Shown one piece after another: positions 7,407 to 30,140 of a DNA stretch of 64,000 nt. The DNA is from Escherichia coli (GTDB taxonomy: Bacteria; Pseudomonadota; Gammaproteobacteria; Enterobacterales; Enterobacteriaceae), in NCBI RefSeq assembly GCF_003790525.1, contig NZ_CP033635.1; one strand, 5' to 3'. Under the pieces are notes generated by a model, which saw only the letters and a program-made list of their open reading frames with translations, made no database searches and was not told the origin of the DNA. Made by a program: the position numbers and the translations under genes. The first letter of the stretch is position 1, and each line of letters opens with the position of its first letter.

Positions 7407-7443
7407 TTCTTGCGTCACTCCCGCTTCAATCCGCATACGCTAA

Positions 7444-7458
7444 GCAATCGCTGTGCCA
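7444..7458 (-). promoter_or_regulatory. Sigma-54 type promoter (-24 TGGCAC / -12 TTGC) for the lfgB-J operon
   Basis: Plus strand gcaatcgctgtgcca is the reverse complement of TGGCAC-AGCGA-TTGC, about 35-50 nt upstream of the lfgB start. Confidence 0.6.
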
Positions 7459-9101: not shown

Positions 9102-9117
9102 CGGCACGCTTATTGCA
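9102..9117 (+). promoter_or_regulatory. Sigma-54 promoter (cGGCACG-N4-TTGCA) driving the variable-region operon
   Basis: cggcacgcttattgca matches the -24/-12 consensus TGGCACG-N4-TTGCW at all positions but the first. Confidence 0.7.
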
Positions 9118-10089: not shown

Positions 10090-10215
10090 GTGCGCGCTTT
10101 TCCCCTCCCCCTAACCCTCTCCCCAAAGGGGCGAGGGAACCGATCGAGCACGGTGTTAAAATCGGCGCTGGTTTTCTCCCTCTCCCTGTGGGAGAGGGTC
10201 GGGGTGAGGGCATCA
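10090..10215. repeat. GC-rich imperfect-palindrome repeat (boxC-like: ccctctcccc...gggagaggg)
   Basis: Related copies at 21405-21455 and 31840-31885. Confidence 0.5.
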
Positions 10216-19911: not shown

Positions 19912-20253
19912 TTAGATCGACATACTCATCAGATCGTTAAATCCGGTGGCGATTTTGTTGCGCACCTGCACCAGCGCGGAGAAAGAGAGCGACGCCTGCT
20001 GGCTGGCGATCATCGCCCCGGCGAGGTCATCACTTTTGCCCGTGTCGACAGCCGTTTGCTGCTGCTCCGCCACCTGCTGGAACTGGTCAACGTGACCGAG
20101 CGCGCCGGACATAATACGGTTAAACGACACGTCCGGGTCGGTGGAACTGAAGGTCATGGCGGGTAGCACTGGCGCCTGGGCGTTGGCCTGCATCCGCTGC
20201 ACGTCCTGCATAATTTGCGCCTGCATGGTGCTGTTGATTGTGGTAATGCTCAT
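19912..20253 (-). CDS. lfiE: Flagellar hook-basal body protein FliE
   Basis: 113 aa; FliE-like C-terminus. Confidence 0.85.
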   Translation of the reverse strand: MSITTINSTMQAQIMQDVQRMQANAQAPVLPAMTFSSTDPDVSFNRIMSGALGHVDQFQQVAEQQQTAVDTGKSDDLAGAMIASQQASLSFSALVQVRNKIATGFNDLMSMSI

Positions 20254-20267
20254 TTTTAACTTCCGGG

Positions 20268-21254
20268 TCAGGAGAAAACTTCGATACCGTGCTTGCGCAT
20301 GGAGGCCAGTCGATAGCGCAGTGCGCGCGGGGTAATGCCTAACAGGTCAGCGATTTTGCTGCGGTTGCCCTGATATTTACGCATCAGGTCGGCGATATAT
20401 TGATACTGCGCGCTTCGTCCGTGCTGGCCTAAATCGCCGGTTTCGGCAATGTGGACGGCGGGCTGAACAGGCCATTGCAGTTCACTGTGGTCAGCAATAT
20501 CGGTGTCCGGCAGGCCTAATGCATCCGGGTAAATTACGCCGTCGCGATTTAAAATCATTCCCCGCTGAATGGCGTTTTCCAGTTGGCGAACGTTACCGGG
20601 CCAACGGTAATTGAGCAGCGCACGGCGGGTGGATTCGGACAGGGTGATATTTTTCACCAGCACCGTGGAGTATTTTTTAATAAATGACTCTGCCAGCGGA
20701 ATAATATCGTTCAGACGTTCACGCAGCGGCGGCATGGTAATAGGAATCACCGCCAGACGATAATAGAGATCTTCACGAAAACGTCCGGCGGCAACTTCCT
20801 GCTCCAGGTTTTTATTGGTGCAGGCAATCAGGCGAAAATTGAGTTTGATTTGTCGGTTGCTGCCTAATCGCTCAACCTGTTGTTCCTGCAACACGCGTAA
20901 TATTTTGGCCTGTAGCGCCAGCGGCATTTCACCAATTTCATCGAGCAATAAGGAGCCGTTATTTGCCAGTTCCATTTTTCCTGGCACGCTGGCAATTGCG
21001 CCGGTAAATGCGCCTTTGTCGTAGCCAAATAACGTCGATTCCAGCATATTTTCCGGGATCGCCGCGCAGTTCACGCCGATATAGGGCGCATTATCATTTT
21101 CACCAAAGGCTACGGTGTGAATATATTTCGCCACGCACTCTTTCCCCGCGCCGGTTTCGCCCTGAATGAGCACCGGCACGTTAAAGGCGGCGACACGCTT
21201 TGCCAGAGTAAAAGCGTTAATGCTGGAAGCGGCAGTTGCAATAAGTTCAGACAT
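20268..21254 (-). CDS. lafK: Sigma-54-dependent transcriptional activator (LafK-type): AAA+ domain plus C-terminal HTH, no N-terminal regulatory domain
   Basis: 328 aa; GETGAGKE Walker A; sigma-54 interaction domain; C-terminal Fis-type HTH. Confidence 0.88.
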   Translation of the reverse strand: MSELIATAASSINAFTLAKRVAAFNVPVLIQGETGAGKECVAKYIHTVAFGENDNAPYIGVNCAAIPENMLESTLFGYDKGAFTGAIASVPGKMELANNGSLLLDEIGEMPLALQAKILRVLQEQQVERLGSNRQIKLNFRLIACTNKNLEQEVAAGRFREDLYYRLAVIPITMPPLRERLNDIIPLAESFIKKYSTVLVKNITLSESTRRALLNYRWPGNVRQLENAIQRGMILNRDGVIYPDALGLPDTDIADHSELQWPVQPAVHIAETGDLGQHGRSAQYQYIADLMRKYQGNRSKIADLLGITPRALRYRLASMRKHGIEVFS

Positions 21255-21404
21255 AGGGTGAACAATATAAGTAGCGACAATAATCAGGATGTTCTGAAGC
21301 GTATCACCGGCGGGATTAACAAGTTCGAATTAAACGATAATAAAAACATTATTTGATGGTAAACAATTAGTTAGATATTAATACTGTTAATTTGGACATC
21401 TGTG

Positions 21405-21455
21405 ATGCCCCCTCACCCTAACCCTCTCCCCGGATGGGGCGAGGGGACAGACCGC
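21405..21455. repeat. GC-rich boxC-like repeat in the lafK / lfiM divergent intergenic region
   Basis: gccccctcaccctaaccctctccccggatggggcgaggggac. Confidence 0.5.
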
Positions 21456-21626
21456 AGACTGATTGGCGAAAATCACTCCCATTAAGCAATTAATCGATTA
21501 ATTATTTTTTCACCCTATTAATAATTTGCCCCTTTCACTCCCCCTCTATTTAATACCTCACCTTGTGTCACAGCCGGATTTGCGTGCACAGAAACACCCA
21601 TACCATTACAGCAGAGAAAGTAAGCC

Positions 21627-22478
21627 ATGCTGAAGTACAGTAAAACGCCAGGCATCTTTAAATTAGAAGGTAATCGGCTCGGACGCCCCTACCATCGCCT
21701 GCCGACCCTGTTTACGGGGAATTTTGACGTGATTGATTCGCATCTTGGCAGCTACTTTCTCAAAAAGCATCGCAGCAATATCACCTTAAAAAAGATTGGC
21801 TGCGAAATGGATATTATTAATAAAAACGCCGAACTGATGGTTTCCCAGGTCGGGCATCTGGCGTTTGATATTGATCGCTCCTTATTGTTAATGCTGCTGG
21901 GCAATTTTTATGGTCTGGAGTCCTCTCTTGAAGAGGCGAAAGCGCATAACGGGCTGCCGACCAAAACCGAAACTCGTTTAAAAAACCGACTCGCGCTGGA
22001 TATCTGCACGCTGATATTTAATCTGCAAACCTCCGGTATTGCGCTGAAATTAAAACTGGACAGCAGCACGGTGATTACCCACTGGGCGTATCAATTAACC
22101 TTTACCCTTGCGGGCGATGAAGAGAGCAGTTTCCGTATTTTGCTCGACGACGCCCACACCGATTTTATTTTGAATCTGATCCGCCACAGCGAGCACAGTA
22201 AACCGCAGCAGGTGGCGAAATCCGTTAATAAACCGGCCCTGATTAAAGAAATCATCCGCTCCCTGCCGCTGACCCTGAACGTCAAAATCGCCGAGCTATC
22301 GATGAATGTCGCCGATCTGGCGCAGATAAAAGCCGGGGATATTTTACCCATCTCGCTGGGAGAAACGTTCCCGGTGGCGATTGGGCAATCTGAATTATTT
22401 AGCGCCCTGATTGTGGAAGACAAAGACAAACTGTTTTTGTCGGAGCTGGCGGGCAAGAATGAGAATAGCCATGAGTAA
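21627..22478 (+). CDS. lfiM: Flagellar motor switch protein FliM
   Basis: 283 aa; FliM family by position and sequence. Confidence 0.8.
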   Translation: MLKYSKTPGIFKLEGNRLGRPYHRLPTLFTGNFDVIDSHLGSYFLKKHRSNITLKKIGCEMDIINKNAELMVSQVGHLAFDIDRSLLLMLLGNFYGLESSLEEAKAHNGLPTKTETRLKNRLALDICTLIFNLQTSGIALKLKLDSSTVITHWAYQLTFTLAGDEESSFRILLDDAHTDFILNLIRHSEHSKPQQVAKSVNKPALIKEIIRSLPLTLNVKIAELSMNVADLAQIKAGDILPISLGETFPVAIGQSELFSALIVEDKDKLFLSELAGKNENSHE

Positions 22479-27967: not shown

Positions 27968-28465
27968 TTATACAATGATACGCTCCCCGGCACTAAAATC
28001 CGTTACGTCCCCCGCCCAATCGATGGGATATAACCCCTTCGCGACATCGCGATGAAACGTTGAGAATGGCCAATCACTCACTTGCTTTACCCAGCCATGT
28101 TTTACTGGATTTATATAAATATAATCAACATGATGGCGATAGTCTTTGGTATTGCGGATGGCGTGCTCCCAAAAACGCGGTTGCCAGATATTTTGCAATC
28201 CACAAGCATGGGTGAACTGTTTTTTAATCTCCCGCCAGCGAGAGGAAAAATCATCATCGCTTTCGGGTAATGTCCAGATACAGTGCATATGCTCCGGCAA
28301 AACTACCCAGGCGTTAATTTCAAAAGGTCTGGCTCGCTTAACGTTAATAATGACTTTACGGAGCATCTGGAACTGAGCGGTCAGAAGATGGCTTCGACGA
28401 TTTCGTAGGTTAACCGTGAAAAACCAGGTTCCCCCTTTGATGTAATAACGACGATATTCAGACAT
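27968..28465 (-). CDS. rayT: REP-associated tyrosine transposase RayT (YafM), IS200/IS605 TnpA-like
   Basis: 165 aa; matches the RayT/YafM sequence as recalled; flanked by REPs. Confidence 0.9.
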   Translation of the reverse strand: MSEYRRYYIKGGTWFFTVNLRNRRSHLLTAQFQMLRKVIINVKRARPFEINAWVVLPEHMHCIWTLPESDDDFSSRWREIKKQFTHACGLQNIWQPRFWEHAIRNTKDYRHHVDYIYINPVKHGWVKQVSDWPFSTFHRDVAKGLYPIDWAGDVTDFSAGERIIV

Positions 28466-29862: not shown

Positions 29863-30140
29863 ATGATTCAAAGGGATATTGAATACTCGGGACAATTTTC
29901 AAAGGATGTAAAACTTGCACAAAAGCGTCATAAGGATATGAATAAATTGAAATATCTTATGACGCTCTTATCAATAATACTTTACTGCTTCCAGCTGTTT
30001 ATAAAGACCACCCGCTGCAAGGTTCATGGAAAGGTTATCGCGATGCTCATGTCGAACCGGACTGGATCCTGATTTACAAACTTACCGATAAACTTTTACG
30101 ATTTGAGAGAACTGGAACTCACGCGGCGCTATTTGGGTAA
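29863..30140 (+). pseudogene. yafQ: yafQ toxin gene disrupted by a frameshift (apparent 1-nt deletion near codon 36-37)
   Basis: N-terminal frame encodes MIQRDIEYSGQFSKDVKLAQKRHKDMNKLKYLMTLL then diverges and stops at 30072; another frame from about 29970 encodes INNTLLLPAVYKDHPLQGSWKGYRDAHVEPDWILIYKLTDKLLRFERTGTHAALFG and stops at 30140. Confidence 0.8.

What the first reader, a model, noticed from the sequence alone, without database searches (positions are those of the whole stretch)
20268..21626. LafK lacks an N-terminal regulatory domain (PspF-like architecture)
The sigma-54 activator begins directly at the AAA+ domain (Walker A about 30 residues from the start) and is only 328 aa. The upstream 370 bp is AT-rich with no coding potential in the lafK frame, so this does not look like a recent truncation. 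The activator may be constitutively active, with control at the level of its own transcription or via a partner protein.
Basis: partly seen in the sequence, partly recalled or inferred. Interest (0 to 1): 0.45.

Follow-up and report, generated by a model that had tools for sequence, protein, structure and literature searches.

The report
Receiver-less LafK flagellar activator of Flag-2
The regulator gene of the second (Flag-2) flagellar system of E. coli really does encode only an ATPase motor and a DNA-binding tail with no sensor domain, but this is an old, conserved and already catalogued design, not a surprise.

Summary
The window is the E. coli SMS-3-5 chromosome. lafK (20268-21254, minus strand) encodes a 328-aa sigma-54 activator: AAA+ domain from residue 6, Walker A at 32-39, GAFTGA at 81-86, Fis-type HTH at 284-317, and nothing before the AAA+ domain.

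The 372 bp upstream are non-coding. They have stops in every frame and no trace of a receiver domain.

It is not a recent truncation. All enterobacterial Flag-2 LafK proteins sampened are 324-348 aa, down to 58% identity, and the gene is under purifying selection.

One nuance was found here. Syntenic LafK orthologues in Vibrio (including V. parahaemolyticus, 443-444 aa), Shewanella and Pseudomonas fragi keep a roughly 120-150-aa degenerate receiver that lacks the phospho-acceptor Asp. The nearest phosphorylatable relatives are FlrC/FleR-type regulators, which also sit directly upstream of fliE. Enterobacterial LafK is therefore the end point of receiver decay.

Two strong sigma-54 promoters in the locus, upstream of lfgB and of a variable-region gene, are its likely targets. 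None lies upstream of lafK.

The literature already groups LafK with PspF and HrpR/S as activators without a signal domain. Constitutive activity is plausible but untested. Low interest.

The parts
20268..21254 (-). lafK coding sequence, 328 aa plus stop; a sigma-54 enhancer-binding protein with no N-terminal domain
20739..21239 (-). Sigma-54 interaction (AAA+) domain, residues 6-172
   Evidence: Pfam PF00158, i-E 1.3e-63
21138..21161 (-). Walker A motif GETGAGKE, residues 32-39
   Evidence: invariant in alignments A2 and A3
20997..21014 (-). GAFTGA sigma-54 contact loop, residues 81-86
20937..20942 (-). Walker B residues D105-E106 of LLLDEI
   Evidence: invariant columns in A2
20517..20723 (-). 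AAA+ lid domain, residues 178-246
   Evidence: PF25601, i-E 1.1e-19
20304..20405 (-). Fis-type HTH_8 DNA-binding domain, residues 284-317
   Evidence: PF02954, i-E 2.3e-8
21255..21626 (.). Divergent non-coding region between lafK and lfiM: closed in all six frames, no Shine-Dalgarno before lafK, no strong sigma-54 promoter
21403..21460 (.). GC-rich imperfect palindrome belonging to a dispersed E. coli repeat family. It is polymorphic: most other Flag-2-positive E. coli carry a REP/BIME-like sequence at this position.
21337..21366 (-). Best, but weak, sigma-70-like candidate promoter for lafK (TTGTTT-18-TATTAT), in the block conserved among E. coli alleles
   Evidence: 8 of 12 matches; below the threshold of the scan; conservation
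21585..21600 (-). Weak sigma-54-like element TGGGTGTTTCTGTGCA facing lafK (7 of 12 consensus positions); probably not functional
19912..20253 (-). lfiE (fliE homologue), starting 14 bp after the lafK stop; lafK-lfiEFGHIJ form one transcription-unit-like array
21627..22478 (+). lfiM (FliM/FliN family), first gene of the divergent lfiMNPQR-lfhBA operon
7443..7458 (-). Strong sigma-54 promoter TGGCACAGCGATTGCT about 40 bp upstream of lfgB; a likely LafK target
9102..9117 (+). Strong sigma-54 promoter CGGCACGCTTATTGCA about 35 bp upstream of the hypothetical gene WP_000008091.1 (variable region 1, followed by a glycosyltransferase); a likely LafK target

Best explanation
The gene is the Flag-2 (lateral-type) flagellar regulator LafK of E. 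coli. It is a bacterial enhancer-binding protein reduced to its AAA+ sigma-54-remodelling motor and a C-terminal Fis-type HTH.

Shown: the catalytic and sigma-54-contact motifs are intact. The short form is the conserved state of all enterobacterial Flag-2 loci sampled and is under purifying selection. No N-terminal coding remnant survives upstream. Syntenic LafK orthologues in Vibrionaceae, Shewanella and P. fragi retain a non-phosphorylatable pseudo-receiver. The closest phosphorylatable relatives are FlrC/FleR-type regulators at the same position, upstream of fliE.

Inferred: LafK descends from an FlrC/FleR-type response regulator. Its receiver first lost its phosphorylation site and was then deleted cleanly at the linker in the ancestor of enterobacterial Flag-2. 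With no regulatory domain, the protein should assemble and hydrolyse ATP whenever it is made. It would then activate sigma-54 promoters such as those upstream of lfgB and of the variable-region gene. Control would rest on lafK expression: an AT-rich upstream region that diverges between genera, only weak sigma-70-like promoters, and no Shine-Dalgarno. An unidentified trans-acting inhibitor is also possible.
For: Domain content and motifs. Conservation of the 324-348-aa form from E. coli to Hafnia, Pantoea, Budvicia, Pragia and Regiella. Same lfiM <> lafK-fliE synteny in Hafnia and Citrobacter, with AT-rich, closed upstream regions. Purifying selection: 41 synonymous versus 9 non-synonymous codon differences within E. 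coli, and 134 versus 58 against Citrobacter. Present in 1284 of 5426 complete E. coli genomes. Vibrio-type orthologues of 431-462 aa in identical synteny; the cluster includes V. parahaemolyticus proteins of 443-444 aa. Their N-terminus is a weak full-length receiver match (i-E 0.0046) with Ser in place of the phospho-acceptor Asp. P. fragi 468-aa orthologue in the same synteny. The nearest receiver-bearing homologues sit upstream of fliE, one in a FleQ-FleS-FleR-FliE array. The best solved-structure match is the V. cholerae FlrC AAA+ domain. A neighbour-joining tree gives a monophyletic enterobacterial clade, sister to P. fragi, inside the FlrC-like group. Sigma-54 promoters in the locus. Francke et al. 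2011 (PMC3162934) list LafK with PspF and HrpR/S as activators without a signal domain.
Against: No expression or activity data exist for E. coli LafK. The accessible papers describe some Flag-2 loci as non-functional or as carrying deletions, so selection on LafK may not be uniform. The tree has no bootstrap support. Removing a receiver does not always give a constitutive activator: for NtrC-type proteins the phosphorylated receiver is needed for assembly (my own knowledge). Constitutive activity is therefore an inference from PspF, HrpR/S and NtrC1/DctD-type precedents. No convincing promoter for lafK was found. The upstream regions of E. coli and Citrobacter do not align.
Confidence: 0.7

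Rival explanations
1. Recent truncation or pseudogene: the 5' part of a longer lafK was lost recently in this strain, and the remaining ORF is decaying.
For: Vibrio, Shewanella and P. fragi orthologues are 115-140 aa longer. Flag-2 loci are deletion-prone.
Against: The 328-aa form is found in 1268 E. coli genomes at full coverage. The 324-348-aa form is found throughout the Enterobacterales, down to 58% identity. Synonymous changes greatly outnumber non-synonymous ones. All catalytic motifs are intact. No remnant is detectable upstream.
Confidence: 0.03
2. Hidden N-terminal domain: a receiver or FleQ-type domain is encoded upstream in another frame, or the start codon is mis-called.
For: The finding's span happens to be in frame, and the intergenic length of 372 bp is about the size of a receiver domain.
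Against: All six frames are closed; the lafK frame has 10 stops. tblastn with five N-terminal domains gives only noise. The centre of the region is a mobile repeat that is replaced by REP/BIME in other strains. The longer proteins in the databases that carry a receiver or ACT domain are assembly chimeras joined at conserved motifs such as FREDLYYRL, PPLRER and WPGNVRQLEN.
Confidence: 0.01
3. LafK is not free-running. It is held in check by a trans-acting partner, as PspA holds PspF, HrpV holds HrpS, or FleN holds FleQ. That partner, not lafK transcription, would be the main control point.
For: This is the usual solution for domain-less activators (my own knowledge of PspF/PspA and HrpS/HrpV). 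In V. parahaemolyticus, LafV represses surface-regulon genes in the presence of LafK (PMC9303241). Flag-2 encodes a putative regulator, LafZ, outside this window.
Against: No PspA-, HrpV- or FleN-like gene is annotated in the part of Flag-2 covered by the window. No interaction data exist.
Confidence: 0.25
4. LafK and Flag-2 are cryptic in E. coli, so the architecture has no regulatory meaning in this host.
For: Accessible papers call the E. coli and Yersinia Flag-2 clusters non-functional, or say their function is not understood. Many strains have lost the locus, and one strain has lafK replaced by IS elements.
Against: lafK shows purifying selection. There are no pseudogene flags in clusters 1 and 2 of this strain. 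Sigma-54 promoters are intact. Flag-2 expression is reported in Y. enterocolitica, and lateral flagella are functional in Plesiomonas.
Confidence: 0.2

Closest known systems
LafK of Vibrio parahaemolyticus and other Vibrionaceae (lateral flagellar sigma-54 activator)
   Same: Same position, between the divergent fliM_L operon and fliE_L-fliFGHIJ_L. About 49% identity over the AAA+ and HTH parts. Same motifs.
   Different: The Vibrio proteins are 443-455 aa, with an N-terminal pseudo-receiver of about 120 aa. Their genes are preceded by motY_L. The E. coli protein starts at the linker, and motY_L is absent.
FlrC (V. cholerae) / FleR (Pseudomonas): NtrC-type flagellar response regulators
   Same: Best solved-structure match (FlrC AAA+ domain, E 1.3e-74). 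The gene lies directly upstream of fliE. It groups with these proteins rather than with FleQ in the tree.
   Different: No receiver domain, no phospho-acceptor Asp and no cognate FlrB/FleS kinase in the locus.
PspF (phage-shock activator)
   Same: The same two-module architecture, an AAA+ domain followed by an HTH with no N-terminal regulatory domain. The PRK11608 model aligns over residues 3-325.
   Different: Not an orthologue: 235.8 and 205.4 bits against cut-offs of 443.55 and 529. No psp operon or PspA partner nearby. The targets are flagellar genes.
HrpR/HrpS (Pseudomonas syringae type III secretion activators)
   Same: Domain-less sigma-54 activators that control a type III export-related machine. 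Francke et al. 2011 place them in the same class Ic as LafK.
   Different: HrpR/HrpS act as a hetero-hexamer of two paralogues (my own knowledge). Flag-2 has a single lafK.
FleQ / FlrA / FlaK master regulators
   Same: Sigma-54-dependent flagellar activators at the top of a hierarchy. Their N-terminal domain is also a non-phosphorylatable receiver-like fold (my own knowledge).
   Different: LafK has no FleQ domain (PF06490 is absent). The AAA+ match is weaker than to FlrC (217 versus 254 bits). FleQ-type proteins form the outgroup in the tree.

Membership tests
Bacterial enhancer-binding proteins (sigma-54 activators) | Sigma-54 interaction AAA+ domain with Walker A and Walker B | tested here: met
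   PF00158, i-E 1.3e-63; GETGAGKE at 32-39; LLLDEI at 102-107
Bacterial enhancer-binding proteins (sigma-54 activators) | GAFTGA loop that contacts sigma-54 | tested here: met
   GAFTGA at residues 81-86
Bacterial enhancer-binding proteins (sigma-54 activators) | Sigma-54 (-24/-12) promoters in the regulated locus | tested here: met
   TGGCACAGCGATTGCT upstream of lfgB and CGGCACGCTTATTGCA upstream of a variable-region gene. Only 4 sites of at least 10 of 12 matches occur in 64 kb, and 2 of them are here, correctly oriented.
Bacterial enhancer-binding proteins (sigma-54 activators) | ATP-dependent activation of sigma-54 holoenzyme | not testable with these tools
   Needs biochemistry or genetics
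LafK (lateral / Flag-2 flagellar regulator) | Location between the divergent fliM_L-flhA_L operon and fliE_L-fliJ_L | tested here: met
   the same arrangement in Hafnia, Citrobacter, Thaumasiovibrio, P. fragi and V. diabolicus
LafK (lateral / Flag-2 flagellar regulator) | Sequence orthology to E. coli 042 and Vibrio LafK | tested here: met
   99% identity to the E. coli cluster; 48.6% identity to the V. parahaemolyticus-cluster protein P0355 over its residues 122-442. The CAH19120.1 sequence itself was not available to compare.
LafK (lateral / Flag-2 flagellar regulator) | N-terminal pseudo-receiver, as in Vibrio, Shewanella and P. fragi LafK | tested here: not met
   Absent from the protein and from the upstream DNA. 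It is absent from the whole enterobacterial clade, so this feature defines a sub-type and is not a reason for exclusion.
PspF | Reaches the curated family score (TIGR02974 / PRK11608) | tested here: not met
   235.8 bits against 443.55, and 205.4 bits against 529
PspF | AAA+ plus HTH with no N-terminal regulatory domain | tested here: met
PspF | Negative control by an adjacent PspA-type partner | tested here: not met
   No PspA-like gene is annotated in the 48 kb around lafK. An interaction with an unlinked partner cannot be tested.
FlrC/FleR two-component response regulators | Phosphorylatable receiver domain and a cognate histidine kinase | tested here: not met
   No PF00072 match; no kinase gene in the locus
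FlrC/FleR two-component response regulators | Gene immediately upstream of fliE-fliF | tested here: met
   lafK stops 14 bp before lfiE; compare L009 and L010
FleQ/FlrA | N-terminal FleQ domain (PF06490) | tested here: not met

The most novel reading that the evidence does not exclude
Enterobacterial LafK is the last step of a graded decay of a two-component receiver. The series runs from phosphorylatable FlrC/FleR, to the non-phosphorylatable pseudo-receiver of Vibrio, Shewanella and P. fragi LafK, to clean deletion of the domain in the Flag-2 ancestor. Receiver loss may also have happened several times independently in FlrC-type activators upstream of fliE. One example sits next to a FleS-like kinase that then has no receiver to phosphorylate (L006). 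If so, Flag-2 was rewired from signal-gated to purely expression-gated control.
Probability: 0.5. Interest if true: 0.3.

Novelty: already known. Interest (0 to 1): 0.2.

Why it matters
It matters little beyond annotation. LafK is a described gene of the Flag-2 locus (Ren et al. 2005, as cited). A published survey already classes LafK with PspF and HrpR/S as sigma-54 activators without a signal-recognition domain (PMC3162934).

The useful refinements are practical:
- E. coli LafK should be compared with FlrC-type regulators and not with FleQ.
- Vibrio LafK is not a good structural proxy for its N-terminus.
- Anyone trying to switch on the poorly understood Flag-2 system in E. coli could probably do so by expressing lafK alone. 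The lfgB and variable-region sigma-54 promoters would serve as read-outs.

Tried and rejected
- **Sigma-70 and terminator scan of 21150-21750:** nothing at the tool's threshold. A looser scan of my own gave only 8-of-12 candidates.
- **Broad GG-N10-GC search:** at chance level and uninformative.
- **Rfam scan of 20000-22000:** one sub-threshold hit, Antizyme_FSE at 25.6 bits against a gathering score of 40, lying on the palindromic repeat. I treat it as spurious.
- **Search of 1.84 billion representative proteins:** dominated by generic multi-domain activators. It served mainly as a source of candidates whose genomic context I then checked.
- **Longer database proteins with receiver or ACT domains and 60-73% identity (P0047, P0065, P0118, P0078):** these are metagenome assembly chimeras of NtrC-, TyrR- or other activators joined to the LafK C-terminus at conserved motifs. 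P0009 and P0011 are fusions with FliE or FliG fragments.
- **Primary LafK papers** (Ren 2005, Stewart & McCarter 2003, Kim & McCarter 2004): not held in the library. I could not check whether the shorter E. coli protein was remarked on there.
- **Paper search for 'LafK' plus 'receiver':** returned unrelated papers.
- **Alignment of the lafK upstream regions of E. coli and Citrobacter:** no conserved block, so no promoter could be inferred by phylogenetic footprinting.
- **Not done:** Aeromonas LafK was not retrieved, and the genome-contig scan was not run.

Full report
**Identity of the region.** The window matches the E. coli SMS-3-5 chromosome (NC_010498.1) at 100% identity. The same 1.7 kb is present in 1284 of 5426 complete E. 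coli genomes. RefSeq annotates the surroundings as cluster 1 of the secondary flagellar (Flag-2) locus. The flhA-flhB-fliR-fliQ-fliP-fliN-fliM homologues run one way. A 'sigma-54 interaction domain-containing protein' followed by the fliE-fliF-fliG-fliH-fliI-fliJ homologues runs the other way. This is the lfhAB-lfiRQPNM / lafK-lfiEFGHIJ arrangement described for E. coli 042 (PMC6993521).

**The observation.** The ORF at 20268-21254 on the minus strand is 328 aa. Pfam finds three domains and nothing before them: Sigma54_activat at residues 6-172, the AAA+ lid at 178-246 and HTH_8 at 284-317. Walker A (GETGAGKE) starts at residue 32, and GAFTGA and Walker B are intact.

The 372 bp between lafK and lfiM (21255-21626) contain 10 stops in the lafK frame and are closed in the other five frames. 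They are 41% GC, or 37% without a GC-rich repeat, against 52% for the gene. tblastn with receiver or pseudo-receiver domains of five relatives finds only noise in E. coli. It finds nothing at E ≤ 1 in the longer upstream regions of Citrobacter (594 bp) and Hafnia (641 bp).

**Not a recent truncation.** Homologues from Citrobacter (82% identity), Leminorella (72%), Atlantibacter, Scandinavium and Pseudescherichia (about 67-71%), and Hafnia, Pantoea, Budvicia, Pragia and Regiella (58-63%) are all 324-348 aa with the same three Pfam domains. Their N-termini differ only by 0-23 poorly conserved residues.

Codon differences are mostly synonymous: 41 against 9 between two E. coli alleles, and 134 against 58 between E. 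coli and Citrobacter.

The few longer hits are artefacts. P0065 and P0118 are NtrC-like, P0078 is TyrR-like and P0047 is another activator. Each switches to the LafK sequence at a conserved motif on a short metagenome contig.

**What it is related to.** The best solved-structure match is the AAA+ domain of V. cholerae FlrC (E 1.3e-74). It scores ahead of NtrC1, FleQ, FlrA and PspF.

The best-scoring single-stretch longer homologues in the 50%-identity representative library all lie immediately upstream of fliE-fliF-fliG:
- one in a canonical FleQ / HisKA kinase / receiver-AAA+-HTH / FliE array;
- one after motY;
- one, from Pseudomonas fragi, in a locus with exactly the Flag-2 cluster 1 synteny.

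A Thaumasiovibrio protein of 445 aa and a V. diabolicus protein of 443 aa sit in the arrangement I recall as published for V. parahaemolyticus (motY_L-lafK-fliE_L). In Thaumasiovibrio the divergent fliM_L-flhA_L operon lies on the other side. A search seeded with the Thaumasiovibrio protein gives a uniform family. Vibrio, Photobacterium, Enterovibrio and Grimontia proteins are mostly 440-462 aa, and Shewanella proteins are 431-442 aa. The 90% cluster of one member contains V. parahaemolyticus, V. harveyi and V. alginolyticus proteins of 443-444 aa.

In these proteins the first 120 or so residues give a weak but full-length match to the receiver model (i-E 0.0046, model positions 1-110 of 111). 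Aligned with genuine FlrC-type receivers, the acidic pair reads P-N and the phospho-acceptor Asp reads Ser, while the DYLxxPF segment is kept. E. coli LafK begins at the position of the linker just before the AAA+ domain.

A neighbour-joining tree, without bootstrap, makes the enterobacterial proteins one clade. That clade is sister to the P. fragi protein, lies inside the FlrC-like group, and is separate from FleQ-type proteins. Other receiver-less proteins are scattered among receiver-bearing ones. Receiver-less activators directly upstream of fliE also occur in Steroidobacteraceae and Pseudomonadales genomes.

**Likely mechanism.** It is shown that the AAA+ motor, the sigma-54 contact loop and the DNA-binding domain are intact and conserved. 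It is also shown that the part of the locus in the window contains two near-consensus sigma-54 promoters, in the right orientation and at the right distance from genes:
- TGGCACAGCGATTGCT, about 40 bp upstream of lfgB;
- CGGCACGCTTATTGCA, about 35 bp upstream of a hypothetical gene that precedes a glycosyltransferase.

Only four sites of this quality exist in the 64 kb.

It is inferred that LafK, lacking any regulatory module, is active whenever it is present, as are PspF and HrpR/S, and as are NtrC1/DctD-type activators once their receiver is removed (established knowledge of those families). The decision to build Flag-2 flagella would then be taken at the level of lafK expression or by a trans-acting partner.

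The lafK side of the intergenic region has no strong sigma-54 element; the best has 7 of 12 matches. It has only weak sigma-70-like candidates and no Shine-Dalgarno sequence. In A. hydrophila, lafK transcription is reported to be sigma-70-dependent (PMC4481668). In Y. enterocolitica, Flag-2 expression peaks at 20 °C (PMC11420993). The AT-rich upstream DNA, which diverges between genera, would fit silencing by a nucleoid protein, but this is speculation.

**Comparison with what is known.** Architecturally the protein is PspF-like, but it is not a PspF family member. It has no PspA-like neighbour. By position and sequence it is LafK. It differs from the Vibrio prototype by the complete absence of the pseudo-receiver and of motY_L.

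Francke et al. 2011 already place LafK with PspF and HrpR/S in class Ic, activators 'lacking the signal recognition domain' (PMC3162934). The accessible Flag-2 comparative papers do not comment on the domain. The primary papers could not be read.

**Verdict.** The finding is correct and its interpretation is reasonable, but it describes a known gene with a known type of architecture. The only increment from this work is the comparison showing that the enterobacterial protein has lost a degenerate receiver that Vibrio, Shewanella and P. fragi orthologues still carry, and that the lineage is FlrC-like. Interest is low.

Noticed in passing
window 21403-21460; also 10102-10122 (-) and 10191-10211 (+): A GC-rich imperfect palindrome (…CCCCTCGCCCCATCCGGGGAGAGGGTTAGGGTGAGGGGG…) belongs to a dispersed E. 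coli repeat family. The family has a median of 13 places per genome and occurs in 5399 of 5426 genomes. From memory it resembles the 'boxC' class of intergenic repeats; this was not verified. Three copies lie in non-coding gaps of Flag-2 in this window.
   Followed up: partly
window 21380-21480 compared with L003:1330-1450: The centre of the lafK-lfiM intergenic region is polymorphic. Only 57 genomes share the SMS-3-5 version. Most other Flag-2-positive E. coli carry a REP/BIME-like pair (GTAGGCCTGATAAGACGCG…GCCGGATGCGGCG…) at the same spot. The flanks next to each gene are conserved.
   Followed up: partly
window 7443-7458 (-) and 9102-9117 (+): Two near-consensus sigma-54 promoters. One lies upstream of lfgB. 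The other lies upstream of the hypothetical gene WP_000008091.1, which leads into the variable-region glycosyltransferase. This suggests the cargo and modification genes are co-regulated with the basal-body genes.
   Followed up: partly
L006:5240-7053 (Pseudomonadales MAG, GCA_019090385.1): A FleQ-type gene is followed by a 251-aa HisKA/HATPase kinase. Five bases later comes a 350-aa receiver-less FlrC-like activator directly upstream of fliE. The kinase therefore has no receiver next to it to phosphorylate.
   Followed up: no
L004 (E. coli strain 1506, NZ_CP059288.1): In this strain the sequence downstream of lfiM is replaced by IS1, a recombinase gene and IS3, so lafK and the lfiE side are missing at this position. 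This is an example of the deletion-prone nature of Flag-2.
   Followed up: no
proteins P0047, P0065, P0118, P0078, P0009, P0011: Public metagenome and assembly collections contain chimeric 'LafK' proteins. In these, NtrC-, TyrR- or other activator N-termini are spliced to the LafK C-terminus at conserved AAA+ motifs, or LafK is fused to FliE or FliG fragments. They could mislead domain-architecture surveys.
   Followed up: yes
window about 27968-28465 (record 254577-255074): A REP-associated tyrosine transposase gene (rayT) lies immediately outside lfhA, at the edge of Flag-2. This may be relevant to the REP/BIME polymorphisms seen inside the locus.
   Followed up: no
window about 29863-30140 (record 252902-253179): The yafQ toxin gene of the dinJ-yafQ toxin-antitoxin pair is annotated as frameshifted in this strain.
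   Followed up: no
cluster of P0355: The 90%-identity cluster holding the V. parahaemolyticus LafK-type proteins also lists 340-aa MotY-family proteins. This is presumably a clustering artefact of the adjacent or overlapping motY_L-lafK genes.
   Followed up: no
window 21403-21460 (+): A sub-threshold Rfam hit to the eukaryotic Antizyme frameshift element (25.6 bits against a gathering score of 40) falls exactly on the palindromic repeat. I regard it as spurious.
   Followed up: yes
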